Positions 31,308 through 41,371 are shown, counted from the stretch's first letter. The stretch: 64,000 bases of DNA from an uncultured Caulobacteraceae bacterium (GCA_903872075.1 CAIQJF010000004.1:94307-158306); one strand, 5' to 3'. The notes: generated by a model from the sequence alone, not told the origin. A program made the numbers and translations.

Positions 31308-33839
31308 TCAGAACTTGTAGCTGGCCTCGACGCCGACCACGCGGCGGTCGCCGGGGGAGATGAAGGAGCCGCCGAACTCGATCGCCGGGATCACCTCGTT
31401 CAGATAGTGCTTGTCGAGCAGGTTTTTGGCGAATGCGGTGACCGACCAGCGGCCGCTGTCCAGGCCCACCCGCAGATCGAACACGCCGAAGGCGTCGCGA
31501 CGGGCGCGGTCGTAGGTGGCGTTGCCGACGAAGGCCGGCAGGGCCAGGGCGCTGATCGGCAGCAGGGCGGAGAACAGGGTCGGACGGACCTCGTCCTGCA
31601 CGGTATGGAACCAGGTCGGGCCGGTCAGGCGGTAGTCGACCCGCGCCACCAGATCCAGGCCATTGCCCACCGGCTGCACGATCTGGGTGCCGAGGTTGAG
31701 GGTGTAGTCGGGCGTGTAGGGCGACTTGTTGCCGACGGTGTAGGGCCGCGAGCGGTTCGCCAGTATGTTGCTGTCGGTATAGTTGAACGATCCGAACACG
31801 TTCCAGCCGCGGGTGACACGCGCGTCGAGGTTGACCTCGGCGCCCTTGATCTCGACGGAATCGATGTTGGAGACCACGCGCAGCAGGCCGAAGCTGCCGA
31901 CGAAGAACTCGAAGAACTGCATGTCGTGGACGCGGGTGTAGTAGCCCGACAGGTCGTAGTGCACGCGATTGCCGAGCAGAGCGCCCTTCACCCCGGCCTC
32001 GAAGGCGCTGGACCACTCCTTGCGGTACTTGTCCTGGATGGTGACGTTGGCGCCGAAGGCCTGGTTGAAGTTCTGATCGACGACGGCGGCCGAACCCTGG
32101 TTGTTGAAACCGCCGGATTTGAAGCCGATGCCCCAGTCCGCATAGACGTTGGTGTTGGCGTTGGGCTTCCAGCTCAGGGAGACCTTAGGTTCGGGCTGGG
32201 AGAAGGTCTCGGACTTGTCGGCGATGGGGCCGCCGGCCTGGCCGGGGTTGATCGGCCCGCCCGTGATGGGGTCGGTGACGAACGGCACGAGATTATGCAC
32301 GTGCCGTTCCTCGACGTCGTAGCGCATGGCCACGTCGAGCTTCAGGTTGCTGGCGATGGCGTAGTCCACCGAACCGAAGCCGGCATAGACATTGGTGGTG
32401 AAGTGGTCCTCGAACAGCTGCGAGGTGGGATTGGTCGAGGCCGGATCGTTGTAGAGCGTTGGCAGCATGCCCTTGCCCAGATCCGCGCCCAGGCTGACGC
32501 CGGTGGTGCGGTCGATGTGCAGGACGTAGGCGCCGACCTGCCAGGAGAGGGGTCCGCCGGTGGTGGAGGCCAGACGCACTTCGCCGCTGAAATCGGCCTG
32601 TTTGCGGACCTGCAGCTGGGTGCCGTCGCAGGTGGTGGGCGAATAGGGTCCGAAGGTGGAGCCGTTGGCCGGGGCGAAGATGAACGGCACGGGGATCTGG
32701 CCGACGCCGCCGGGCGGGTTGACTTTGAAGCCGGTCAAGGCGGCGGTTGACGCGAAACAGGCGTTCATCACGGCCAGGTTGGTGGGGTTGGGCGTCGCGC
32801 CCAGGGCCGGGGCGATGTAGCGGGCGAAGTCGGCCGAGGTTCCGTCGGCCTCAAGGCTCTGATCGATGTTCGAATAGAGGAACCAGGCGGTCAGCTTGGC
32901 CTTGTCGAAGCTGTGCTCGAGCTTGGCCGAGACCTCGGCGGTGCGCTGATCGTTGCTCGGCCGGATATTGGAATAGTAGTTGAACGGGTGGGTGTTGACG
33001 TTCTCGTAGAAGGCCGGGTTCACGGCCGCGAAGTTCGGCAGGGCGAAGGCGGCGTTGAAATTGATCGAGGCGCCCGAGAGTTTCTCGTAACGGGCCTTCA
33101 CGTCCAGGTTGGTCTTGTCGTCAAGCTTGGCGACGATGCGGCCGTCGATGCCATAGACGGTCTGCTCATCCACCGAATTGTGATCGGCCAGATAGGTGTT
33201 CTGGAAAAAGCCGTCGGTGTGGCGATAGAAGCCCGACACCACCGCCCCGACCTTGTCCGAGACGGGGCCTGACACATAGCCGCGCACCTCGCCGGTGTTG
33301 TGCTCGGCGAAACTGCCGGTGATCGCGCCGGCCAGATGATCGCCCGGGGTGACGGTGGTGATGGCGATGGCGCCGGCGGCGGCGTTGCGGCCGTAGAGCG
33401 CGCCCTGGGGACCTTTGAGGATTTCCACCTGACGCAAAGTGCCCTGCACCTCGTTGAGCTGGGCGGTGTTGGTCTTGAGGATGCCGTCGACCACCAGGGC
33501 CACTGAGCTCTCGGCGTCACGGGCGCCGTTCATGCCGCGGATGTTGATCTGGGTGTCGCCGGCCTCGGCCGTGCCGGTGACGATGCTCACCCCCGGGGTC
33601 AGACGCACGAAATCCTCGGCCTTGGTGACGCCGGTGCGGGCGATGGTCTCGGAGGAGAGCACCGTGACGGCGGCCGGCACGTCGATCAACCGCTCCGACT
33701 GGCGGCGGGCGACGACGATGACCTCGGTTACGTCCGTGGCGGCCGCGCCGGGCGCGTTCGTCGACGCGGCGGCGGCGGTCGCCGGCAGGGCGGCGGCCAT
33801 GGCGGCGCTGGCGAGCAGCCACTTGAGTGAGGTGTGCAT
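31308..33839 (-). CDS. TonB-dependent outer-membrane receptor
   Basis: Signal peptide, TonB box (TEVIVVA), plug motif VEILKGPQGALYGRNAAAGAI, C-terminal YKF. Confidence 0.95.
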   Translation of the reverse strand: MHTSLKWLLASAAMAAALPATAAAASTNAPGAAATDVTEVIVVARRQSERLIDVPAAVTVLSSETIARTGVTKAEDFVRLTPGVSIVTGTAEAGDTQINIRGMNGARDAESSVALVVDGILKTNTAQLNEVQGTLRQVEILKGPQGALYGRNAAAGAIAITTVTPGDHLAGAITGSFAEHNTGEVRGYVSGPVSDKVGAVVSGFYRHTDGFFQNTYLADHNSVDEQTVYGIDGRIVAKLDDKTNLDVKARYEKLSGASINFNAAFALPNFAAVNPAFYENVNTHPFNYYSNIRPSNDQRTAEVSAKLEHSFDKAKLTAWFLYSNIDQSLEADGTSADFARYIAPALGATPNPTNLAVMNACFASTAALTGFKVNPPGGVGQIPVPFIFAPANGSTFGPYSPTTCDGTQLQVRKQADFSGEVRLASTTGGPLSWQVGAYVLHIDRTTGVSLGADLGKGMLPTLYNDPASTNPTSQLFEDHFTTNVYAGFGSVDYAIASNLKLDVAMRYDVEERHVHNLVPFVTDPITGGPINPGQAGGPIADKSETFSQPEPKVSLSWKPNANTNVYADWGIGFKSGGFNNQGSAAVVDQNFNQAFGANVTIQDKYRKEWSSAFEAGVKGALLGNRVHYDLSGYYTRVHDMQFFEFFVGSFGLLRVVSNIDSVEIKGAEVNLDARVTRGWNVFGSFNYTDSNILANRSRPYTVGNKSPYTPDYTLNLGTQIVQPVGNGLDLVARVDYRLTGPTWFHTVQDEVRPTLFSALLPISALALPAFVGNATYDRARRDAFGVFDLRVGLDSGRWSVTAFAKNLLDKHYLNEVIPAIEFGGSFISPGDRRVVGVEASYKF

Positions 33840-33900
33840 CCCCGATCCTCTCGTTCGCGCCATCGTTCCGAACGGGCGCATGTTTCGATCCTGTGACGCT

Positions 33901-33912
33901 ATTGTGTACAAA
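33901..33912. promoter_or_regulatory. GntR/FadR-type operator TTGTGTACAA
   Basis: Near-palindrome in the TBDR/gntR divergent intergenic region; matches the second site at 35302. Confidence 0.7.
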
Positions 33913-33953
33913 CCTGCCTCGTCAAGACTTGCTGACGTCGCGCCCCCCGGCTT

Positions 33954-34622
33954 ATGAAAATGCCCATGACACGGGCAGCCGACCGCGCTTACGACGAGAT
34001 ACGCAGCCTGATCCTGTCAGGCGACGCTCCGCCGGGGTCGCAACTCACCGAAGAACACCTCGCCGAGATCTGCGGCGTCTCGCGCACGCCGGTGCGCGAC
34101 GCTCTGCGCCGGCTGGAGGCGGAACTCTATGTTGTGCGCAGCGATTCGCAGCGCGTCTTCGTGGCCGACTGGAGCCTTGAGGAGGTGGAGGAGATCTTCG
34201 CCCTGCGCGGCATGCTGGAGGCCCATGCCGCCGGCCGGGCGGCGCGGCGGCTGACCAGCGCGCAGATCGAGTCCTTGAGAGGCTTCAACGCCGACCTGCG
34301 GGACGCGGTGATGCGCCCGGCGCCGGACGTCGCCGCCTTCCTTGAGGCCAACCGCGCTTTTCACAACCTGATTATCGACGCGGCCCAGTCGCCGCGGCTG
34401 GCGGCCAACCTGGCGACCCTGGTGGAGCAGCCGATCGTGCGGCGGACGGCCCGGCAATATGGCCGCGATCAGCTGGAGCGGTCGATGCGCGAGCATGACG
34501 AACTGATCCAGGCCTTTGCCTCCCGGGACAACGGCTGGGCGGGGGCGGTGATGACCGCGCATATCCGCCGCGCCTATCACGCCTTCTCGGAGGCGGCGCC
34601 GCGCCTCAAGGCCGCGGAATAG
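33954..34622 (+). CDS. GntR family regulator (FCD domain)
   Basis: LAEICGVSRTPVRDALRRLEAE HTH; NRAFH and EHDELIQA FCD motifs. Confidence 0.95.
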   Translation: MKMPMTRAADRAYDEIRSLILSGDAPPGSQLTEEHLAEICGVSRTPVRDALRRLEAELYVVRSDSQRVFVADWSLEEVEEIFALRGMLEAHAAGRAARRLTSAQIESLRGFNADLRDAVMRPAPDVAAFLEANRAFHNLIIDAAQSPRLAANLATLVEQPIVRRTARQYGRDQLERSMREHDELIQAFASRDNGWAGAVMTAHIRRAYHAFSEAAPRLKAAE

Positions 34623-35250
34623 AGGCCAGGTAGGCGCCGGCCGCGGCGCTGTCGATCACCTCGGCGTATTTCGCCTGCAGATCGAACAGGTTGGCCTCAT
34701 GCACCCCGGCGTCGCGGTCGCCGCAGGCGTCGCGCACCACCAGGGGCGTGAAGCCGTGGCAGAGGGTGTCGAGCGCGGTGGCCCGCACGCAGCCGGAGGT
34801 GGAAAGACCCGTCACCAGACAGGTGTCGACCCCGAGCGCGTGGAGTCGCGCGGCCAGATCGGTGCCGAAGAAGGCGCTGGGGTATTGTTTGGTGATGACG
34901 ATGTCGCCGTCCTGGGGGCGCAGGGCGTCGGTGAAATCGCCGAGCGGATTGCCGCGGTCGAAGGCCTTCAGGGCCGGCACCTTGCCATAGAACCGCCCGC
35001 CGCCGAGCGCCGGATCGCCAGGCACATACTCAACGCGGGTGAAGACCACCGGAACGCCGGCGGCGCGGGCCTGGGCGGCGAGACCGGCCGCGACCTCGCG
35101 CTCGGCCTCGACCCCGGCGTAGAGGCCGCAGTCCGGATCGAAATAGGCCCGGGCGAAGTCCACCAGGATGAGGGCCGGGCGATCTCCCGGCGCGAGGCCG
35201 CCGCCGAATCCGGCCCGGTCGTAGTCGCTCTTCAAGGCCGCCGAACGCAT
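34606..35250 (-). CDS. Isochorismatase/cysteine hydrolase family (N-carbamoyl/maleamate amidohydrolase-like)
   Basis: LILVDF, KQYPSAFFGT and STSGCVRATALD (Asp-Lys-Cys triad). Confidence 0.9.
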   Translation of the reverse strand: MRSAALKSDYDRAGFGGGLAPGDRPALILVDFARAYFDPDCGLYAGVEAEREVAAGLAAQARAAGVPVVFTRVEYVPGDPALGGGRFYGKVPALKAFDRGNPLGDFTDALRPQDGDIVITKQYPSAFFGTDLAARLHALGVDTCLVTGLSTSGCVRATALDTLCHGFTPLVVRDACGDRDAGVHEANLFDLQAKYAEVIDSAAAGAYLASIPRP

Positions 35251-35301
35251 GGCCCTTCCCCCGAAAAATTGCCACCTCCGGCTATACAGGCGGGCAGGCC
35301 A

Positions 35302-35313
35302 TTTGTATACAAA
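35302..35313. promoter_or_regulatory. GntR/FadR-type operator TTTGTATACAAA
   Basis: Perfect 12-bp palindrome between the divergent isochorismatase and lyase genes. Confidence 0.75.
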
Positions 35314-35317
35314 ACCC

Positions 35318-36250
35318 ATGGAACCGGTCACCCTTTTCGAGGTCGGCCCGCGGGACGGGCTGCAGAACGAGCCGGAGACGGTGGCGATGGCTGACAAGGT
35401 CGCCCTGGTGGCGCGCGCCATCGACTACGGCGCACGGCGCATCGAGGTCGGCAGTTTCGTCAATCCGCGCCGCGTGCCCCAGATGGCCGGGACGGAAGAT
35501 GTCATCGCCGGCCTGCCTGACGATCCGGCGGTGCGCTACACGGCCCTGTGCCTGAACGTGCGTGGGGTCGAGCGGGCCATCGCGACGCGCGAGACCGGCC
35601 GCGGCGTCGACGAGGCGGGCTGCGTGATCGTGGCCTCCGACACCTTCGGCGTCGCCAACCAGGGCCAGACCATCGCCGACGGGATCGCCGCCAACCGGGC
35701 GATGATCGCCCTGGCCAAGTCCGCCGGCCTGAAGGCCCAGGTGACCATCGGCGCCGCGTTCGGCTGCCCCTTCGAGGGGCCGACGCCGCAGGACCGGGTG
35801 CTGGACATCGCCGAGGCCATGGCCGAGGCCGGCGCCGAGGAGATCGCCTTCGCCGACACCATTGGCGTGGGCGTGCCGCCGCAGGTTGGCGAGACGGTGG
35901 CGCGGGCGTTCGAGCGCCTGGGCAACACCTTCCCCCTGCGCGTGCACCTGCACGACACCCGCGGCCTGGCGGCCGCCAACGCCTGGGCCGCCTATCTGGC
36001 GGGCTGCCGCACCTTCGACAGCGCGCTGGGCGGGCTGGGCGGCTGTCCGTTCGCCCCCAAGGCGGCCGGCAATGTGGCCACCGAGGAGCTGGCCTATATG
36101 TTCGCCCGGTCGGGCATCGCCACCGGCGTTGACCTGGACGCGGTCCTGGCCGCCAACGCCTGGTTCGAGACGGTCATGGGCCGCCCCCTGCCCAGCCGCG
36201 TCGGCCGGGCGGGCGATTTCACCATCACAAGGGAACCTGTCCGCGCATGA
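35318..36250 (+). CDS. HMG-CoA lyase family (DRE-TIM) protein
   Basis: EVGPRDGLQNE, FADTIG, HLHDTRG and GLGGCPFAP motifs. Confidence 0.9.
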   Translation: MEPVTLFEVGPRDGLQNEPETVAMADKVALVARAIDYGARRIEVGSFVNPRRVPQMAGTEDVIAGLPDDPAVRYTALCLNVRGVERAIATRETGRGVDEAGCVIVASDTFGVANQGQTIADGIAANRAMIALAKSAGLKAQVTIGAAFGCPFEGPTPQDRVLDIAEAMAEAGAEEIAFADTIGVGVPPQVGETVARAFERLGNTFPLRVHLHDTRGLAAANAWAAYLAGCRTFDSALGGLGGCPFAPKAAGNVATEELAYMFARSGIATGVDLDAVLAANAWFETVMGRPLPSRVGRAGDFTITREPVRA

Positions 36251-38289
36251 GCTATCGCCTGGGCGTCGACGTCGGCGGCACCTTCACCGACTTCCTGATC
36301 ATCGACGAGGCCACCGGCCGCACGTTCCGCGACAAGGCGCCCTCGACCCCGCACGATCCCAGCGAAGCGGTGATCGCCGGCGCCCGGGCCCTGTGCGCGC
36401 GGGCGGAAATCTCGCCGACCGAGTTGGAGCTGTTCCTGCACGGCACCACCGTCGCCACCAACGCGGTGCTGGAACACAAGATCGCCCGGGTGGGGCTGAT
36501 CGTCACCGAGGGTTATCGCGACATTCTGCAGATCGCCCGAAGCCTGGTGCCCGGCGGCCTGGCGGCCTGGATCGTCTGGCCCAAGCCCACGCCCATGGCC
36601 CCGCTGGAGGCAACCATCGAGGCCCCCGAGCGCATGGGCGCCGACGGCCAGATCGTGCGCCCGCTGGACGAGGCCGGGTTGCGGCGGAACCTGCGGCGCC
36701 TGGCCGAGGAGAAGGTCGAGGCGGTGACGGTCTGCCTGATCAACTCCTATCTCAACGACGCCCATGAGCGGCGGGTGGCCGAGATCGTGGCCGAGGAGCT
36801 TCCGGGCCTGCCGGTGAGCCTCTCGGCCGACATCCTGCCGGAGATGCAGGAATATGAGCGGGCCCTGACCACTGTGGCCAATTCGGCCGTGCGCCCGACC
36901 GTGTCGCGCTATGTGGGCAATCTGGAGCGCGAACTGCGCGCCTGGGGCACCGAGGCCAAGCTCAGTCTGTTGCGCTCGGACGGCGGGCTGATGTCGGCGG
37001 ACAAGAGCCGCGCGGCGCCGGTGAACCTGTTGATGTCGGGCCCGGCCGGCGGCGTGGCCGGGGCCGTGTGGGTGGCCAAGAACGCCGGCTTCCCCAACAT
37101 CCTGACCCTGGACATGGGCGGCACCTCCACGGATGTGGCCCTGATCGAGAACTACGAGCCGCGCCTGCGGCGGGAGACCAGCGTCGGACACCTGACGGTG
37201 CGGGCCTCGTCGCTGGACGTAAAGACGGTGGGGGCCGGCGGCGGTTCGATCGCCTCGGTGCCGGAACTGACCCGGGCCCTGCGCGTGGGACCGCAGTCGG
37301 CCGGCGCCGCGCCGGGACCGGCCGCCTATGGCCGGGGCGGCGAGCAGCCGACCGTGACCGACGCCAATGTGGTGCTGGGCTATCTGCCGGAGAACCTGCT
37401 GGGGGGCGCCTTCAAGCTGGACCGCGACGCGGCGCGCCGGGCCGTGCAGCTGGTGGCCGACGCGCTTGGCCTGTCGCTGATGGAGGCGGCGGCCGGCATC
37501 GTCTCGATCGTCAATGAGACCATGTACGGGGCGCTGCGGCTGGTGTCGGTGCAGCAGGGCTACGATCCCCGCGACTTCGCCCTGATGGCCTTCGGCGGGG
37601 CCGGTCCGCTGCACGGCAACGCCCTGGGCGTGCTCATGGGCAGCTGGCCGGTGATCATCCCGCCCTCCCCCGGCGTGCTCTGCGCCTACGGCGACGCCAC
37701 CACCCGCCTGCGGGTGGACGCCCAACGCAGCTTCAACAAACTGGTGACCCAGACCACCGACGCCGAGGTCGAGGCGGTGACCGCCGAGGTGATCGCCCAG
37801 GTGACGGCCGAACTGGAGGCCGAGGGCGTGGCCCGGACCGATCAGACGCTGAGGATCGAGGTGGACGTGCGTTACGCCGGCCAGGCCTTCGAGGTGCCGC
37901 TGGAAAAGCCGCCGGGATCGGACATTGCCGACCTGACCGGACGGTTCGACGCCGAGCACAAGCGCCTGTTCACCTTCAACCTGCCGACGCCGCAGGAGCT
38001 GGTGAATATCCGGGTCATCGCCCTGGGCAAGTCGGCCAATGTGAGCGCCGAACGCATCGCCGAGGGCGACGGCGACCCCGCCGGCGCGCGCCTCTACGAC
38101 CACGAGGTCTGGATGGACGGCCGCGCCCAGGGCGCGGCGATCTATGACCGGGCGAAACTGCGGGCCGGCGACATCGTTCCCGGCCCGGCGGTGGTCACCG
38201 AGATGGACTCAACCACCCTCGTCCTGGCCGGCCACATCGCCACGGTCGACCCCTTTGGCAACATCCTCATCACTCCGGAGACGCGCTGA
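36247..38289 (+). CDS. Hydantoinase A / 5-oxoprolinase ATP-binding subunit
   Basis: DVGGTFTD, HGTTVATN, SGPAGG and DMGGTSTD motifs. Confidence 0.95.
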   Translation: MSYRLGVDVGGTFTDFLIIDEATGRTFRDKAPSTPHDPSEAVIAGARALCARAEISPTELELFLHGTTVATNAVLEHKIARVGLIVTEGYRDILQIARSLVPGGLAAWIVWPKPTPMAPLEATIEAPERMGADGQIVRPLDEAGLRRNLRRLAEEKVEAVTVCLINSYLNDAHERRVAEIVAEELPGLPVSLSADILPEMQEYERALTTVANSAVRPTVSRYVGNLERELRAWGTEAKLSLLRSDGGLMSADKSRAAPVNLLMSGPAGGVAGAVWVAKNAGFPNILTLDMGGTSTDVALIENYEPRLRRETSVGHLTVRASSLDVKTVGAGGGSIASVPELTRALRVGPQSAGAAPGPAAYGRGGEQPTVTDANVVLGYLPENLLGGAFKLDRDAARRAVQLVADALGLSLMEAAAGIVSIVNETMYGALRLVSVQQGYDPRDFALMAFGGAGPLHGNALGVLMGSWPVIIPPSPGVLCAYGDATTRLRVDAQRSFNKLVTQTTDAEVEAVTAEVIAQVTAELEAEGVARTDQTLRIEVDVRYAGQAFEVPLEKPPGSDIADLTGRFDAEHKRLFTFNLPTPQELVNIRVIALGKSANVSAERIAEGDGDPAGARLYDHEVWMDGRAQGAAIYDRAKLRAGDIVPGPAVVTEMDSTTLVLAGHIATVDPFGNILITPETR

Positions 38290-40163
38290 TGCCCGCGAGG
38301 ATCCTAGCCGCCAACCCCAAACCGTTCGCGCCGGTCGCCATCGATCCGGTGACTCTGGACATCATCGAGAACGCGCTGCGCAACGCGCGGATCGAGATGG
38401 ACGCCACCCTGGTGCGCACGGCCATGTCGCCGGGCATCCGCGAACAGGGTGACGCCTTCCCCTTGATCGCCGATCCGGAGGGCCGGATGATCGTCGGCCA
38501 GTTCGGCAGCTTCATCGGCGGCTTCCTGCGCGCCTATGAGGGGACGATCGAGGACGGGGACATGATCTTCCTGTCCGACCCCTACAGCTGCGAGGGCGCG
38601 ATCAGTCACTCCAACGACTGGCTGGTGCTGCTGCCCGTGTTCCGGGGCGGCCGGCTGGTCGCCTGGACGGCGATGTTCGGCCACCAGTCGGATATCGGCG
38701 GCAAGGTCGCCGGCTCCATGCCCATCGACGCCCGCTCGATCTTCGAGGAAGGCGTGCGCATCCCGCCGGTGAAGATCTACGCCCGCGGTCAGTACAATGG
38801 GGATCTGGTGCGGCTGGTGATGCACCAGACCCGCAAGCCCGACTGGTGCGCCGCCGACCTCAACGCCCTGATCGCCTCCTGCCGCGTGGCGGCGCGCCGC
38901 GTGGACGAGATGTGCGCCCGCTTCGGCGACGACATCTATGTCTCGGCCACCCAGGCCCTGCTGGAGCGCAACCACCGGGCCATGAAGGCCCTGATCGAGA
39001 GCTCGGTGGGCGTCGATCCGGTGACGTTCGAGGACTATATCTGCGACGACGGCGTGGGCTACGGACCCTACAAGATCCGCTGCTCGATGCGCCGCGACGG
39101 CTCGAAGGTGATCCTCGACTTCACGGGCACCGATCCGCAGTCGGCCGCCTCGATCAATTTCTATCTCAACGAGAACATGTTCAAGATGTTCTTCGGAATC
39201 TACATGATCATGGTCTTCGACCCGCAGATCATGTTCAACGACGGGTTCTATGACCTGATCGAGGTGAAGATCCCCGAGGGCTCGCTGCTTAAGCCGCGCT
39301 ATCCCGCCGCCCTGTCGGGCCGCACCCATGCCCTGGGCCGGATCTTCGACATCCTCGGCGGCCTGCTCGGTCAGCGGACGCCGGAATTCCTGTGCGCCGC
39401 CGGCTTCTCGTCCTCGCCGCACCTGATGTACTCGGGGCGCGACAAGGCCGGCGACTGGTTCCAGCTGTTCCAGATCGGCTTCGGCGGCATTCCCGGTAAG
39501 CCGTTCGGCGACGGCCCCGACGGCCACTCCCTGTGGCCGGGCTTCACCAACGTGCCCAACGAGTTCCTCGAGCGCTATTTCCCCCTGCGGATCGAGCGTT
39601 ACGAGGCCCTGGCCGACACCGGCGGCGCAGGGCGCTATCGCGGCGGCAACGGCATCCTGATGACCTACCGCTTCCTGGCGGCCGGCACGGTGTCGATCCA
39701 TGACGACCGATGGTTCATGTATCCCTGGGGCGTCAACGGCGGGAAGCCGGGCCAGCGCGCCCGCAAGATCCTGGAAAAGGCCGACGGAACCCAGACCATT
39801 GTCGCCAACAAGCTCGACAGCCTGGCGGTGGAAGACGGCGATCTGCTGCATTTCATCACCTGGGGCGGCGGCGGCTGGGGCGATCCGCTCGATCGCGAGG
39901 CCGATCTGGTGGCCAAGGAGATTCGCCAGGGATTGGTGACCTCCGCGGGCGCCCTCGCCTATGGCGTCGTCGCGGACGCGGACGGCGTACTCGATATGGC
40001 GGCCACCGACGTCCTGCGGGCGAAGATGCGCGCCGAAGCGGCCCCCCCAGCCCTGTTCGACCGGGGCGGCGAGATCGAGGACCTGCGCGCCCGCTGCGAG
40101 GCGGAAACGGGCCTGCCCGCGCCGCGCCCGCCGGTGTGGACCTTCGCGGCCGCCGCGGAATAG
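38289..40163 (+). CDS. Hydantoinase B / 5-oxoprolinase catalytic subunit
   Basis: DPYSCEGAISHSND, HQSDIGG and GAGRYRGG motifs; TGATG coupling. Confidence 0.95.
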   Translation: MPARILAANPKPFAPVAIDPVTLDIIENALRNARIEMDATLVRTAMSPGIREQGDAFPLIADPEGRMIVGQFGSFIGGFLRAYEGTIEDGDMIFLSDPYSCEGAISHSNDWLVLLPVFRGGRLVAWTAMFGHQSDIGGKVAGSMPIDARSIFEEGVRIPPVKIYARGQYNGDLVRLVMHQTRKPDWCAADLNALIASCRVAARRVDEMCARFGDDIYVSATQALLERNHRAMKALIESSVGVDPVTFEDYICDDGVGYGPYKIRCSMRRDGSKVILDFTGTDPQSAASINFYLNENMFKMFFGIYMIMVFDPQIMFNDGFYDLIEVKIPEGSLLKPRYPAALSGRTHALGRIFDILGGLLGQRTPEFLCAAGFSSSPHLMYSGRDKAGDWFQLFQIGFGGIPGKPFGDGPDGHSLWPGFTNVPNEFLERYFPLRIERYEALADTGGAGRYRGGNGILMTYRFLAAGTVSIHDDRWFMYPWGVNGGKPGQRARKILEKADGTQTIVANKLDSLAVEDGDLLHFITWGGGGWGDPLDREADLVAKEIRQGLVTSAGALAYGVVADADGVLDMAATDVLRAKMRAEAAPPALFDRGGEIEDLRARCEAETGLPAPRPPVWTFAAAAE

Positions 40164-40168
40164 TCCCC

Positions 40169-41371
40169 ATGTCCGAGATCAAGACCGAGAACCGTGGGCC
40201 ACTGCGGGGCATCCGCGTGGTGGAGATGGGCCAGCTGATCGCCGGCCCGTTCTGCGGCCAGCTGCTCGGCGATATGGGCGCCGACGTGATCAAGCTCGAA
40301 CCGCCCGGCAAGGGCGATCCGATGCGCGACTGGGGCCGGGGCGACCTGCGCCTATGGTGGGAAGTGGTGGCGCGCAACAAGCGCAGCGTCTCGCTCAATC
40401 TGCGCGTGCCCGAAGGCCAGGAGATCGCCCGCCAGCTGATCGCCACCGCGGACATCCTGATCGAGAACTTCCGGCCCGGCACCCTGGAGAAGTGGGGCAT
40501 GAGCCCCGCCGACCTGCACGCCCTCAATCCCCGCCTGATCATCGTGCGGGTGTCCGGCTACGGCCAGAGCGGCCCCTACAGCGAACGCGCCGGGTTCGGC
40601 GGAATCGGCGAGGCCATGGGCGGCTGGCGCGCCATCGTCGGCGACGCGGACCGGCCGCCGAGCCGCATGGGCGTGTCGATCGGCGACACCTTGGCGGCCA
40701 CCTACGGCTGCCTGGGCGCACTGGCGGCCCTCCGCCACCGCGAACTGACCGGCGAGGGTCAGGTGGTGGATTCGGCGCTCTATGAAGCCGTGCTGCAGGT
40801 GATGGAAAGCCTGATCCCCGACTACAGCGTCGGCGGCTATGTCCGGGAACGGTCGGGGTCGATCCTGCCCGGCATCGCACCCTCGAACGTTTATCAGTGT
40901 ACGGACGGCGAGTATCTGATCGGCGCCAACCAGGACAGCGTGTTCGCCCGGCTGTGCGCGGCCATGGGCCGTCCCGAACTGGCCACGGACGCGCGGTTCA
41001 TCGATCATATCTCGCGCGGAACACACCAGGGCGAACTTGACGGCCTGATCAACGACTGGACCCGGACCCTCACGGTCGAGGCGGTCGAGACGCTGATGGT
41101 CAAGCACGCGATCCCCGCCGGCCGGGTCTACCGGCCCGCCGATATCATCGCCGATCCGCACGTCCAGGCGCGCGAGGCGGTGGTCGAGGTCGCCCATCCG
41201 CGCTGGAAGAGCCTGAAAATGCAGTCTGTCTTCCCGCGCCTGTCGAAATCCCCCGGCGCGATCCGCTCGATCGCACCGCAGACCGTCGGCGAGAACAACC
41301 TCGAGGTGCTGGGCGAACTCGGCCTGACCGCGGACGACTGCGAGCGACTGACCGGCTCCGGCGTGCTCTGA
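40169..41371 (+). CDS. Class III (CaiB/BaiF) CoA-transferase
   Basis: AGPFCGQLLGDMGADVIKLE, RNKRSV, ENFRPG and GDTLAA (catalytic Asp). Confidence 0.95.
   Translation: MSEIKTENRGPLRGIRVVEMGQLIAGPFCGQLLGDMGADVIKLEPPGKGDPMRDWGRGDLRLWWEVVARNKRSVSLNLRVPEGQEIARQLIATADILIENFRPGTLEKWGMSPADLHALNPRLIIVRVSGYGQSGPYSERAGFGGIGEAMGGWRAIVGDADRPPSRMGVSIGDTLAATYGCLGALAALRHRELTGEGQVVDSALYEAVLQVMESLIPDYSVGGYVRERSGSILPGIAPSNVYQCTDGEYLIGANQDSVFARLCAAMGRPELATDARFIDHISRGTHQGELDGLINDWTRTLTVEAVETLMVKHAIPAGRVYRPADIIADPHVQAREAVVEVAHPRWKSLKMQSVFPRLSKSPGAIRSIAPQTVGENNLEVLGELGLTADDCERLTGSGVL

What the first reader, a model, noticed from the sequence alone, without database searches (positions are those of the whole stretch)
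31308..41371. Self-contained GntR regulon for an unknown lactam/hydantoin-type substrate
Seen: TBDR, GntR, cysteine amidohydrolase, HMG-CoA-lyase-like enzyme, HyuA/HyuB-type ATP-dependent hydrolase and class III CoA-transferase. Two matching TTGTRTACAA palindromes lie exactly in the two divergent promoter regions. Established: HyuAB-type enzymes open cyclic amides (N-methylhydantoin, 5-oxoproline, caprolactam, NMP), and isochorismatase-family enzymes remove the resulting carbamoyl/amide group, as in creatinine catabolism. A CoA-transferase plus DRE-TIM lyase cleaves 3-hydroxy acids by retro-Claisen chemistry. Inference: a complete pathway (ring opening, deamidation, CoA activation, C-C cleavage) for a scarce, TonB-imported cyclic amide bearing a beta-hydroxy acid, which I cannot match to a described pathway.
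Basis: partly seen in the sequence, partly recalled or inferred. Interest (0 to 1): 0.62.

Follow-up and report, generated by a model that had tools for sequence, protein, structure and literature searches.

The report
Uncharacterised cyclic-imide breakdown gene cluster
This is a real, tightly regulated seven-gene set, conserved from sphingomonads to salt-loving archaea, that most likely imports a small nitrogen-containing ring compound, opens it with ATP, removes the nitrogen and splits the carbon skeleton; its substrate is still unknown and I found no paper describing it.

Summary
All seven genes are present, with slightly corrected starts. The two TTGTRTACAA palindromes lie in the two divergent intergenic regions.

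New evidence:
- The exact 10-mer lies upstream of 48 of 61 gntR and 41 of 65 lyase orthologues, with only 4 other hits in 1.42 Mb.
- It occurs only three times in the 4.36-Mb genome. The third copy is inside a coding region, so the regulon is self-contained.
- The TonB receptor is part of the conserved set.
- The core is HyuA, HyuB and an isochorismatase-type amidase.
- A C-C cleavage module usually accompanies it. In bacteria this is a CoA-transferase plus an HMGL-like lyase. In haloarchaea it is a 2,3-dimethylmalate-lyase-like enzyme.
- Several lineages add a dedicated extra LeuCD-type or MaoC-type hydratase.

This points to a cyclic imide of an alkyl-substituted C4 diacid (maleimide or succinimide type). 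It would pass through a half-amide, an alkylmaleate and an alkylmalate to a 2-oxoacid plus acyl-CoA. That fits better than a hydantoin or a lactam already bearing a beta-hydroxy acid.

The substrate is unproven. Ten literature searches found no matching pathway. This scan flagged the same cluster before on other genomes, with similar verdicts.

The parts
31308..33839 (-). TonB-dependent outer-membrane receptor (843 aa, signal peptide, Plug and barrel domains)
   Evidence: Pfam PF07715 and PF00593. The start was corrected from the sequence. Orthologues of 61-71% identity sit next to the cluster in at least 44 related loci. A 40%-identical one lies inside the single operon of two low-GC Pseudomonadota genomes.
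33902..33911 (.). Operator O1, palindrome TTGTGTACAA, in the divergent TBDR/gntR control region
   Evidence: The same 10-mer is conserved upstream of 48/61 gntR orthologues, with extended consensus TATTGTATACAAAT.
33954..34622 (+). GntR-family regulator with an FCD effector domain (FadR subfamily type)
   Evidence: Pfam GntR 1.4e-17 and FCD 4.3e-22. Co-conserved with the enzymes in most loci.
34606..35250 (-). Isochorismatase-family cysteine amidohydrolase (214 aa) of the N-carbamoylsarcosine amidase / maleamate amidohydrolase subgroup
   Evidence: Pfam 2e-35. Best solved relatives are N-carbamoylsarcosine amidohydrolase 26st at 9e-44, and 3ot4/3uao, deposited as 'putative isochorismatase', at 3e-37; that this entry is NicF maleamate amidohydrolase is my own knowledge. 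The Asp31-Lys121-Cys154 triad aligns with theirs.
35303..35312 (.). Operator O2, perfect palindrome TTGTATACAA, in the divergent amidase/lyase-operon control region
   Evidence: Conserved upstream of 41/65 lyase orthologues.
35318..36250 (+). HMG-CoA-lyase-family (DRE-TIM) lyase, first gene of the lyase-hyuA-hyuB-CoA-transferase operon
   Evidence: Pfam HMGL-like 1e-40. NCBIfam PRK05692 286.7 bits, above the 246 cut-off. Best PDB match is HMG-CoA lyase 1ydo at 5e-60. The N-terminus MEPVTLFEVGPRDGLQNE, the HLHD motif and the GGCPF motif are visible.
36247..38289 (+). HyuA-type ATP-binding subunit of an ATP-dependent cyclic-amide hydrolase (4-bp overlap with the lyase gene)
   Evidence: Pfam Hydant_A_N, Hydantoinase_A and Hydant_A_C. 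The ATP motifs DVGGTFTD (8), DMGGT (289) and GAAPGP (353) are present, as defined for caprolactamase in PMC8453981.
38289..40163 (+). HyuB-type metal-containing hydrolytic subunit
   Evidence: Pfam Hydantoinase_B 3e-146. Best PDB matches are N-methylhydantoinase 7hk5 at 1e-63 and caprolactamase 6yra_B at 3e-57; acetone carboxylase reaches only 1e-14. Asp55, His107, Asp110 and His132 align with the CapB metal ligands Asp41, His99, Asp102 and His124.
40169..41371 (+). Class III (CaiB/Frc-type) CoA-transferase, last gene of the operon
   Evidence: Pfam CoA_transf_3 5e-124. The best NCBIfam models are succinate-glutarate and succinyl-CoA:mesaconate CoA-transferases, both below cut-off. PDB SUGCT scores 1e-56.

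Best explanation
This is a self-contained, GntR-repressed catabolic regulon for a small cyclic imide, most likely a maleimide- or succinimide-type ring derived from an alkyl-substituted C4 dicarboxylic acid.

Proposed steps:
1. The TonB-dependent receptor takes the compound across the outer membrane.
2. HyuA phosphorylates the ring amide with ATP, and HyuB hydrolyses the activated ring to a half-amide (maleamate or succinamate type).
3. The isochorismatase-family cysteine hydrolase releases ammonia, leaving an alkylmaleate- or alkylmalate-type diacid.
4. If the diacid is unsaturated, a LeuCD-type hydratase converts it to a 2-alkylmalate. Here that would be the housekeeping enzyme; other lineages carry a dedicated paralogue.
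5. The class III CoA-transferase makes the CoA ester.
6. The HMGL-family lyase cleaves the ester to a 2-oxoacid (such as pyruvate) plus an acyl-CoA.

The FCD-type GntR protein binds the TTGTATACAA operators in both divergent promoter regions and is released by a carboxylate intermediate.

Shown: the gene families, intact catalytic motifs, conserved synteny, the operator footprint and its genome-wide restriction to this locus. Inferred: the order of steps, the imide nature of the substrate, the hydration step and the effector.
For: - Gene families and catalytic residues are intact.
- The six cytoplasmic genes stay together in at least three different gene orders across about 60 of 80 loci from genomes labelled Sphingomonadales. 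The receptor joins them in at least 44 of those loci.
- The same enzyme set occurs on an Acidiphilium plasmid, on a Geobacillus plasmid, and in two low-GC Pseudomonadota genomes as one operon: sigma-54 regulator, TBDR, CoA-transferase, HMGL, HyuA, HyuB, amidase, LeuC, LeuD. Rubrobacter has the set without a listed lyase.
- In haloarchaea the CoA-transferase and HMGL pair is replaced by one isocitrate-lyase/PEP-mutase-family gene. Its best solved relative is 2,3-dimethylmalate lyase at 5e-53. This fits a malate-type hydroxy-diacid as the cleaved intermediate.
- Hydratases are recruited repeatedly. LeuCD-type genes occur in three Pseudomonadota genomes, where they are extra paralogues, and next to the Geobacillus cluster. 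A two-subunit MaoC-type hydratase occurs in another genome. 2-Alkylmaleates are the natural intermediates of LeuCD (own knowledge).
- No variant examined contains an aminotransferase, dehydrogenase or ammonia-lyase for an amine, so all nitrogen must leave hydrolytically.
- The amidase belongs to the subgroup holding N-carbamoylsarcosine amidase and 3ot4/3uao, which I know as maleamate amidohydrolase NicF.
- The operator is conserved upstream of 48/61 gntR and 41/65 lyase genes, with 4 hits elsewhere in 1.42 Mb. It occurs only 3 times in the 4.36-Mb genome.
[quoted passage not shown] 2006, 2007). The enzyme names and EC numbers are confirmed in PMC8307300.
Against: - No experiment bears on this cluster, and the substrate is not identified.
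- The best structural relatives of HyuB and of the amidase are the two enzymes of the N-methylhydantoin route, so a hydantoin cannot be excluded from sequence.
- The window's own cluster has no hydratase, and the genome has only one LeuC. The hydration step therefore rests on a housekeeping enzyme or is not needed here.
- The lyase passes NCBI's HMG-CoA-lyase subfamily cut-off, and the transferase resembles succinate-hydroxymethylglutarate CoA-transferase. An HMG route from a six-membered imide thus remains possible.
- Cyclic imides are usually hydrolysed without ATP by metal-dependent imidases, so the need for ATP is not explained.
- A TonB receptor is unusual for a small neutral compound, and no inner-membrane transporter is conserved.
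- Some relatives carry a hydantoin/allantoin-racemase-fold protein.
Confidence: 0.5

Rival explanations
1. Hydantoin route, as in creatinine breakdown. HyuAB opens a 5-substituted or N-substituted hydantoin to an N-carbamoyl amino acid. The isochorismatase-type enzyme decarbamoylates it to an amino acid. The CoA-transferase and lyase then handle a side chain or a separate product.
For: The best solved relatives are N-methylhydantoinase (1e-63) and N-carbamoylsarcosine amidohydrolase (9e-44). A hydantoin/allantoin-racemase-fold gene lies in the cluster in about 15 related loci.
Against: The product would keep an amino nitrogen, yet no variant has an aminotransferase, oxidase or ammonia-lyase. 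The co-conserved lyases and hydratases act on nitrogen-free hydroxy- or enoyl-diacids. The racemase-like protein has Thr and Ser where the two catalytic Cys should be. No creatinine deaminase or sarcosine oxidase is in the cluster.
Confidence: 0.15
2. Six-membered imide or HMG route. A glutarimide-type ring, such as 3-hydroxy-3-methylglutarimide, is opened and deamidated to 3-hydroxy-3-methylglutarate. This is activated by an SUGCT-like transferase and cleaved by a true HMG-CoA lyase to acetoacetate plus acetyl-CoA.
For: The lyase exceeds the NCBIfam HMG-CoA lyase subfamily cut-off (286.7 against 246). The transferase matches human succinate-hydroxymethylglutarate CoA-transferase at 1e-56.
Against: The archaeal replacement is a 2,3-dimethylmalate-lyase-like enzyme of the isocitrate-lyase family, which cleaves 2-hydroxy-1,4-diacids and not 3-hydroxy-1,5-diacids (family chemistry from own knowledge). 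LeuCD-type hydratases act on 2-alkylmaleates and 2-alkylmalates. The genome has a second HMGL paralogue of 49% identity that could be the housekeeping HMG-CoA lyase.
Confidence: 0.12
3. The imported compound already carries the hydroxyl group, for example a hydroxy-succinimide or another hydroxylated cyclic amide. The LeuCD-type enzymes of other lineages would then only isomerise 3-alkylmalate to 2-alkylmalate.
For: The window's cluster and the haloarchaeal operons work without a dedicated hydratase. LeuCD enzymes are isomerases in their native role (own knowledge).
Against: A MaoC-type enoyl-CoA hydratase in one variant is hard to explain without an unsaturated intermediate. No natural hydroxy-imide of this kind is known to me.
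Confidence: 0.15
4. HyuAB is an ATP-dependent ketone carboxylase of the acetone or acetophenone carboxylase type, not a hydrolase. It would feed a beta-keto acid to the CoA-transferase.
For: It belongs to the same superfamily. Acetophenone and acetone carboxylase subunits are detectable relatives.
Against: Similarity to acetone carboxylase is far weaker (1e-14) than to the lactam and hydantoin hydrolases (1e-57 to 1e-63). There is no gamma subunit gene. The strictly co-conserved cysteine amidohydrolase has no role in such a route.
Confidence: 0.03

Closest known systems
Creatinine / N-methylhydantoin pathway (ATP-dependent N-methylhydantoinase HyuAB plus N-carbamoylsarcosine amidase)
   Same: It pairs the same two enzyme families: an ATP-dependent ring opener followed by an isochorismatase-fold cysteine hydrolase. 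These are the best solved relatives of both proteins.
   Different: There is no creatinine deaminase or sarcosine oxidase here. The pair is instead always joined to a C-C cleavage module (CoA-transferase plus HMGL-like lyase, or an isocitrate-lyase-family lyase) and often to a hydratase. That implies a nitrogen-free diacid product, not an amino acid.
Bacterial cyclic-imide metabolism (imidase plus half-amidase, Blastobacter sp.; own knowledge of Ogawa, Soong and Shimizu's work)
   Same: It follows the same chemical logic: cyclic imide to half-amide to dicarboxylate, then entry into central metabolism.
   Different: The enzyme families differ. The imidase is ATP-independent and the half-amidase belongs to the amidase-signature family. 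No CoA-dependent cleavage, TonB receptor or GntR operator system is described there.
Late steps of nicotinate fermentation in Eubacterium barkeri (dimethylmaleate hydratase DmdAB, LeuCD-like; 2,3-dimethylmalate lyase; own knowledge of Alhapel et al. 2006), and maleamate amidohydrolase NicF of aerobic nicotinate breakdown
   Same: The route from alkylmaleate to alkylmalate to pyruvate plus acid uses a LeuCD-type hydratase and an isocitrate-lyase-family lyase. The amidase is a close relative of 3ot4/3uao (3e-37), which I know as NicF. NCBIfam names a 'LeuD/DmdB family', and the archaeal lyase best matches 2,3-dimethylmalate lyase.
   Different: None of the pyridine-ring enzymes is present. The ring opener is an ATP-dependent HyuAB. 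In bacteria the cleavage is CoA-dependent through an HMGL-family lyase.
[quoted passage not shown]
   Same: A class III CoA-transferase sits next to an HMG-CoA-lyase-family lyase that cleaves a 2-alkylmalyl-CoA to acetyl-CoA plus pyruvate. The enzymes are named in PMC8307300; their family assignment is my own knowledge.
   Different: There they are part of a carbon-fixation side route, with no ring-opening or amidase partners. Orthology to the window's proteins was not tested.
Caprolactamase CapAB / 5-oxoprolinase OplAB
   Same: The two-subunit architecture, the ATP motifs and the Asp-His-Asp-His metal site match.
   Different: Those lactams give amino acids that are removed by transaminases. 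Here a hydrolytic amidase and a lyase module follow. HyuB lacks the CapB loop carrying Ile60 and Ile62 of the hydrophobic pocket (alignment).

Membership tests
GntR family, FadR-like (FCD) subfamily regulators | N-terminal GntR winged helix-turn-helix plus C-terminal FCD effector domain | tested here: met
   Pfam PF00392 1.4e-17 (residues 9-70) and PF07729 4.3e-22 (residues 80-205).
GntR family, FadR-like (FCD) subfamily regulators | Palindromic operator of the T.GT...AC.A type near its own and its target promoters | tested here: met
   TTGTGTACAA and TTGTATACAA lie in both divergent regions. They are conserved in 48/61 and 41/65 orthologous upstream regions. The consensus type is from my own knowledge (Rigali et al. 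2002).
GntR family, FadR-like (FCD) subfamily regulators | Physical binding of the protein to the operator and release by an effector | not testable with these tools
   Needs EMSA or thermal shift.
ATP-dependent hydantoinase/oxoprolinase/caprolactamase (HyuAB type) | A subunit with ASKHA ATP motifs DxGGTxxD, DxGGT and GxxPGP | tested here: met
   DVGGTFTD at 8, DMGGT at 289 and GAAPGP at 353. The motifs are as listed in PMC8453981.
ATP-dependent hydantoinase/oxoprolinase/caprolactamase (HyuAB type) | B subunit with the Asp-His-Asp-His metal site | tested here: met
   Asp55, His107, Asp110 and His132 align with CapB Asp41, His99, Asp102 and His124.
ATP-dependent hydantoinase/oxoprolinase/caprolactamase (HyuAB type) | ATP-dependent hydrolysis of a cyclic amide | not testable with these tools
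   Needs an enzyme assay.
Acetone/acetophenone carboxylases | Extra small (gamma) subunit and close similarity to the carboxylase alpha and beta subunits | tested here: not met
   There is no third subunit gene in the operon. Acetone carboxylase alpha scores only 1e-14, against 1e-57 to 1e-63 for the hydrolases.
Isochorismatase-like cysteine hydrolases (N-carbamoylsarcosine amidase / NicF subgroup) | Asp-Lys-Cys catalytic triad | tested here: met
   Asp31, Lys121 and Cys154 align with the triad of 26st, 3ot4, 4l07 and 1nba. The Cys column is the one changed to Ala in entry 4l08.
HMG-CoA lyase subfamily of DRE-TIM metallolyases | Score above the curated subfamily cut-off, plus the signature residues (RD near the N-terminus, HxH metal ligands, GGCP loop) | tested here: met
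   NCBIfam PRK05692 286.7 bits against 246. GPRDGLQNE, HLHD and GGCPF are visible in the translation. The residue roles are from my own knowledge of human HMGCL.
HMG-CoA lyase subfamily of DRE-TIM metallolyases | Specificity for HMG-CoA, in a leucine or ketone-body context | tested here: inconclusive
   It is not in a liu-type cluster. A second paralogue (49% identity) exists elsewhere in the genome. The archaeal replacement by a dimethylmalate-lyase-like enzyme argues for an alkylmalyl-CoA substrate.
Class III CoA-transferases (CaiB/Frc/BaiF) | Full-length CoA_transf_3 domain | tested here: met
   Pfam PF02515 4.8e-124, profile positions 1-364 of 366. The catalytic Asp was not checked residue by residue.
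Creatinine / N-methylhydantoin pathway | Creatinine deaminase and sarcosine oxidase or dehydrogenase alongside HyuAB and the carbamoylsarcosine amidase | tested here: not met
   Neither is present in the window's cluster or in any related cluster examined.

The most novel reading that the evidence does not exclude
The cluster is a dedicated pathway for the monopyrrolic maleimides formed when chlorophylls, bilins and haem are photo-oxidised. These are hematinic acid imide, methyl-ethyl-maleimide and methyl-vinyl-maleimide.

The 3-methyl-4-alkylmaleimide would be opened by HyuAB and deamidated to a 2-methyl-3-alkylmaleate. That would be hydrated to a 2-methyl-3-alkylmalate and cleaved to pyruvate plus an acyl-CoA. 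In archaea a dimethylmalate-lyase-like enzyme would do the cleavage.

This would describe the so far unknown microbial fate of tetrapyrrole-derived imides in sunlit waters, salt lakes and microbial mats. It would also explain why the cluster is found in many genomes labelled as phototroph-associated sphingomonads and in haloarchaea.
Probability: 0.12. Interest if true: 0.8.

Novelty: new variant of a known kind. Interest (0 to 1): 0.55.

Why it matters
All the enzyme families are known, but their fixed combination has no described pathway. The set comprises a TonB receptor, an ATP-dependent ring opener, a cysteine amidase, a CoA-transferase with an HMGL-type lyase (or an isocitrate-lyase-type lyase), and sometimes a LeuCD paralogue.

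The set is widespread but patchy. It occurs in many genomes labelled Sphingomonadales, in some other Pseudomonadota, and in Geobacillus, Rubrobacter and haloarchaea. It is found in 21 of 301 genomes of the window's order and 8 of 401 of the phylum sample.

Identifying the substrate would add a catabolic route for a class of natural N-heterocycles. It would give a function to thousands of genes annotated as 'N-methylhydantoinase/5-oxoprolinase' and 'HMG-CoA lyase'. It would also provide a clean GntR/operator pair usable as a biosensor. The comparative evidence narrows the experimental search to a short list of imides.

Tried and rejected
- My first synteny pass missed the receptor because I had translated it in the wrong frame. 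With the correct start at 33839 the orthology was clear.
- The third genomic TTGTGTACAA, on contig 11, lies inside a coding frame and was dismissed as chance.
- The consensus sigma-70 scan found no promoter in the region, so it says nothing about how the operators sit relative to promoters.
- The fused homologues P0124 (eukaryotic gene structure, with introns) and P0125 (50-54% identity), and a soil-metagenome fused homologue (P0126), sit in unrelated contexts. They gave no clue.
- The second HMGL paralogue is not in a recognisable leucine-catabolic cluster, so it neither confirms nor excludes a housekeeping role.
- The racemase-fold accessory protein resembles hydantoin and allantoin racemases, not maleate isomerase, and lacks both catalytic cysteines. 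I dropped it as evidence for a maleate isomerisation step.
- Kinship of the named sphingomonad genomes to the window's genome is not disclosed by the tools. I therefore make no claim about horizontal transfer.
- Ten literature searches found no paper on this cluster or on bacterial maleimide catabolism. Two papers I wanted could not be opened: Friedmann 2007 and Alhapel 2006.

Full report
**Observation**

Reading the junctions corrected several starts:

| Gene | Coordinates |
|---|---|
| TonB-dependent receptor | 31308-33839 (-) |
| gntR (GntR plus FCD domains) | 33954-34622 (+) |
| isochorismatase-family hydrolase | 34606-35250 (-) |
| HMGL-family lyase | 35318-36250 (+) |
| hyuA | 36247-38289 (+) |
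| hyuB | 38289-40163 (+) |
| class III CoA-transferase | 40169-41371 (+) |

The lyase, hyuA, hyuB and transferase genes overlap or lie 5 bp apart, so they form one operon. The receptor and gntR diverge from a 114-bp region. The amidase gene and the operon diverge from a 67-bp region. Each region holds one palindrome: TTGTGTACAA at 33902-33911 and TTGTATACAA at 35303-35312. These are the only two places matching TTGTRTACAA in the window, even with one mismatch allowed. They count as four matches over both strands against 0.30 expected, and no shuffle reached four.

**The operators are real**

In the whole 4.36-Mb genome the motif occurs at three places: the two above and one inside a coding frame on contig 11. 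'Self-contained regulon' is therefore a fair description.

In 80 related loci the exact 10-mer lies within 250 bp upstream of 48 of 61 gntR orthologues and 41 of 65 lyase orthologues. Only 4 other copies occur in 1.42 Mb. The gntR-side consensus extends to TATTGTATACAAAT. This fits the FadR-subfamily operator type (own knowledge). Binding itself is inferred.

**The genes belong together**

HyuB is 76-95% identical to proteins from genomes and metagenomes labelled Sphingomonas, Sandarakinorhabdus, Novosphingobium, Erythrobacter, Blastomonas and others. In about 60 of the 80 loci, gntR, the lyase, hyuA, hyuB, the transferase and the amidase lie together, in at least three different gene orders. 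That is the signature of functional coupling rather than inherited adjacency.

My first pass missed the receptor because of a frame error. With the correct protein, orthologues of 61-71% identity flank the cluster in at least 44 loci. A subset of loci adds one or two SnoaL-like proteins and a hydantoin/allantoin-racemase-fold protein. The latter has Thr and Ser where the two catalytic cysteines should be. The window lacks these genes.

The cluster is patchy. HyuB orthologues are found in 21 of 301 genomes of the window's order and in 8 of 401 genomes sampled across the phylum.

**Catalytic competence**

- HyuA has the three ATP motifs defined for caprolactamase.
- HyuB has the Asp-His-Asp-His metal site. 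It is far closer to N-methylhydantoinase (1e-63) and caprolactamase (3e-57) than to acetone carboxylase (1e-14).
- The amidase has the Asp-Lys-Cys triad. Its nearest solved relatives are N-carbamoylsarcosine amidohydrolase (9e-44) and 3ot4/3uao (3e-37), which I know as maleamate amidohydrolase NicF.
- The lyase passes NCBI's HMG-CoA-lyase subfamily cut-off.
- The transferase is a full-length class III enzyme. Its best models are succinate-glutarate and succinyl-CoA:mesaconate CoA-transferases, and it matches human SUGCT at 1e-56.

**What the variants in other lineages say**

| Lineage | Gene content |
|---|---|
| Acidiphilium plasmid | GntR, lyase, transferase, HyuA, HyuB, amidase; porin and MFS transporter alongside |
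| Geobacillus plasmid | amidase, HyuA, HyuB, transferase, lyase; sigma-54 regulator; leuC-leuD one IS element away |
| Rubrobacter | GntR, transferase, HyuA, HyuB, amidase |
| Two low-GC Pseudomonadota genomes | one operon: sigma-54 (PrpR_N type) regulator, TonB receptor (40% identical to the window's), transferase, lyase, HyuA, HyuB, amidase, LeuC, LeuD |
| A third Pseudomonadota genome | HyuA, HyuB, LeuC-like, LeuD-like; the same regulator type |
| Another genome | two amidases, an alpha/beta hydrolase, a transferase, HyuAB, a two-subunit MaoC-type hydratase, a CoA ligase, a TonB receptor |
| One metagenomic variant | an enolase-superfamily gene between hyuA and hyuB |
| Haloarchaea (three examined) | HyuA, HyuB, amidase, one isocitrate-lyase/PEP-mutase-family gene; no transferase or HMGL |

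In the three Pseudomonadota genomes with LeuC-like genes, the cluster's LeuC is an extra paralogue beside another copy elsewhere. The haloarchaeal lyase's best solved relative is 2,3-dimethylmalate lyase at 5e-53.

**Inference**

The invariant core is HyuAB plus the cysteine amidase. In most variants a C-C lyase system follows. Two unrelated lyase systems are interchangeable, and hydratases are recruited repeatedly. No variant has an enzyme that could remove an amine.

The simplest chemistry satisfying all of this runs as follows: cyclic imide, then half-amide, then diacid plus ammonia. The diacid has a maleate or malate skeleton. It is hydrated to a 2-alkylmalate if unsaturated, and then cleaved to a 2-oxoacid plus an acid or acyl-CoA.

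2-Alkylmaleates are the natural bound intermediates of LeuCD. A class III transferase plus an HMGL-family lyase is the known solution for D-citramalate in Chloroflexus. The enzymes are named in PMC8307300; the family assignment is my own knowledge. The pairing of a LeuCD-like hydratase with a dimethylmalate lyase is known from nicotinate fermentation (own knowledge; NCBIfam names a 'LeuD/DmdB family').

The window's genome has only one LeuC. Here the hydration would fall to the housekeeping enzyme, or the substrate would already be hydroxylated.

I put about 0.85 on the general scheme and 0.5 on the imide and alkylmalate version.

**Rivals**

- A hydantoin route (0.15) is favoured by the nearest solved relatives but leaves an amino acid with no way on.
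- A glutarimide-to-HMG route (0.12) fits the lyase and transferase names. It does not fit the archaeal lyase or the LeuCD paralogues.
- A ketone carboxylase (0.03) is unlikely.

**Speculative substrate**

Monopyrrolic maleimides are documented oxidation products of chlorophyll and haem in leaves and lake sediments (PMC7318184). They include hematinic acid imide, methyl-ethyl-maleimide and methyl-vinyl-maleimide. Their 3-methyl-4-alkyl pattern would yield 2-methyl-3-alkylmalates. That is the substrate type of dimethylmalate lyase, and the products would be pyruvate plus an acyl-CoA. Many carriers come from sunlit aquatic or saline habitats. This is only a hypothesis (probability about 0.12).

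**Novelty and context**

Ten full-text searches found no description of this cluster. The scan's own notes show the same cluster was flagged on at least eight other genomes. Three follow-ups reached similar verdicts, including one imide-to-maleate reading. These are leads, not independent evidence.

- the quantified operator footprint and its genome-wide restriction;
- receptor orthology reaching into gammaproteobacterial-type operons;
- the demonstration that the LeuCD genes are dedicated paralogues;
- a chemically coherent shortlist of substrates.

Noticed in passing
L007:3213-3968 (-), with orthologues in about 15 related loci between the receptor and gntR: A hydantoin/allantoin-racemase-fold protein (best PDB 3qvk/3qvj, 7e-20) has Thr and Ser at the positions of the two catalytic cysteines. 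It is accompanied by one or two SnoaL-like proteins. Its function is unclear; it may be a non-thiol epimerase or a binding protein. It is absent from the window.
   Followed up: partly
own genome, contig C85:52754-54271 (-) (L001): A second Hydantoinase_B match (613 bits) lies in a 1225-aa open frame. It is probably a fused HyuA-HyuB 5-oxoprolinase-type gene and is only 27% identical to the cluster's HyuB.
   Followed up: no
own genome, contig C5:20763-21647 (+) (L112/L113): A second HMGL-family paralogue (49% identical to the cluster's lyase) sits beside a PMT-type glycosyltransferase and a Sel1-repeat protein, not in a leucine-catabolic cluster. The search reports one in-frame TGA inside the match region.
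   Followed up: partly
own genome, contig C11:102304-102313 (L086:1501-1510): The only other genomic copy of TTGTGTACAA lies inside a 454-aa coding frame. It is most likely a chance match and not a third operator.
   Followed up: yes
window 38289-40163 compared: The window's HyuB is 84-88% identical to proteins of MAGs labelled Sphingomonas or Sphingomonadaceae. It is only 70-77% identical to the orthologues found in sampled genomes of the window's own GTDB family. This could mean horizontal transfer or simply sparse sampling. The tools do not disclose the kinship of named genomes.
   Followed up: partly
L102 and L103 (homologues P0124 and P0125): Fused HyuA-HyuB proteins of 50-54% identity to the window's HyuB occur on two further contigs. 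P0124's gene spans 4.7 kb for 1208 residues and does not translate colinearly, so it has introns and is eukaryotic; P0125 translates directly. Neither has amidase or lyase neighbours visible in the stretches fetched.
   Followed up: partly
window 34606-34622: The 3' ends of gntR and the convergent amidase gene overlap by 17 bp, and no terminator-like structure lies between them.
   Followed up: no
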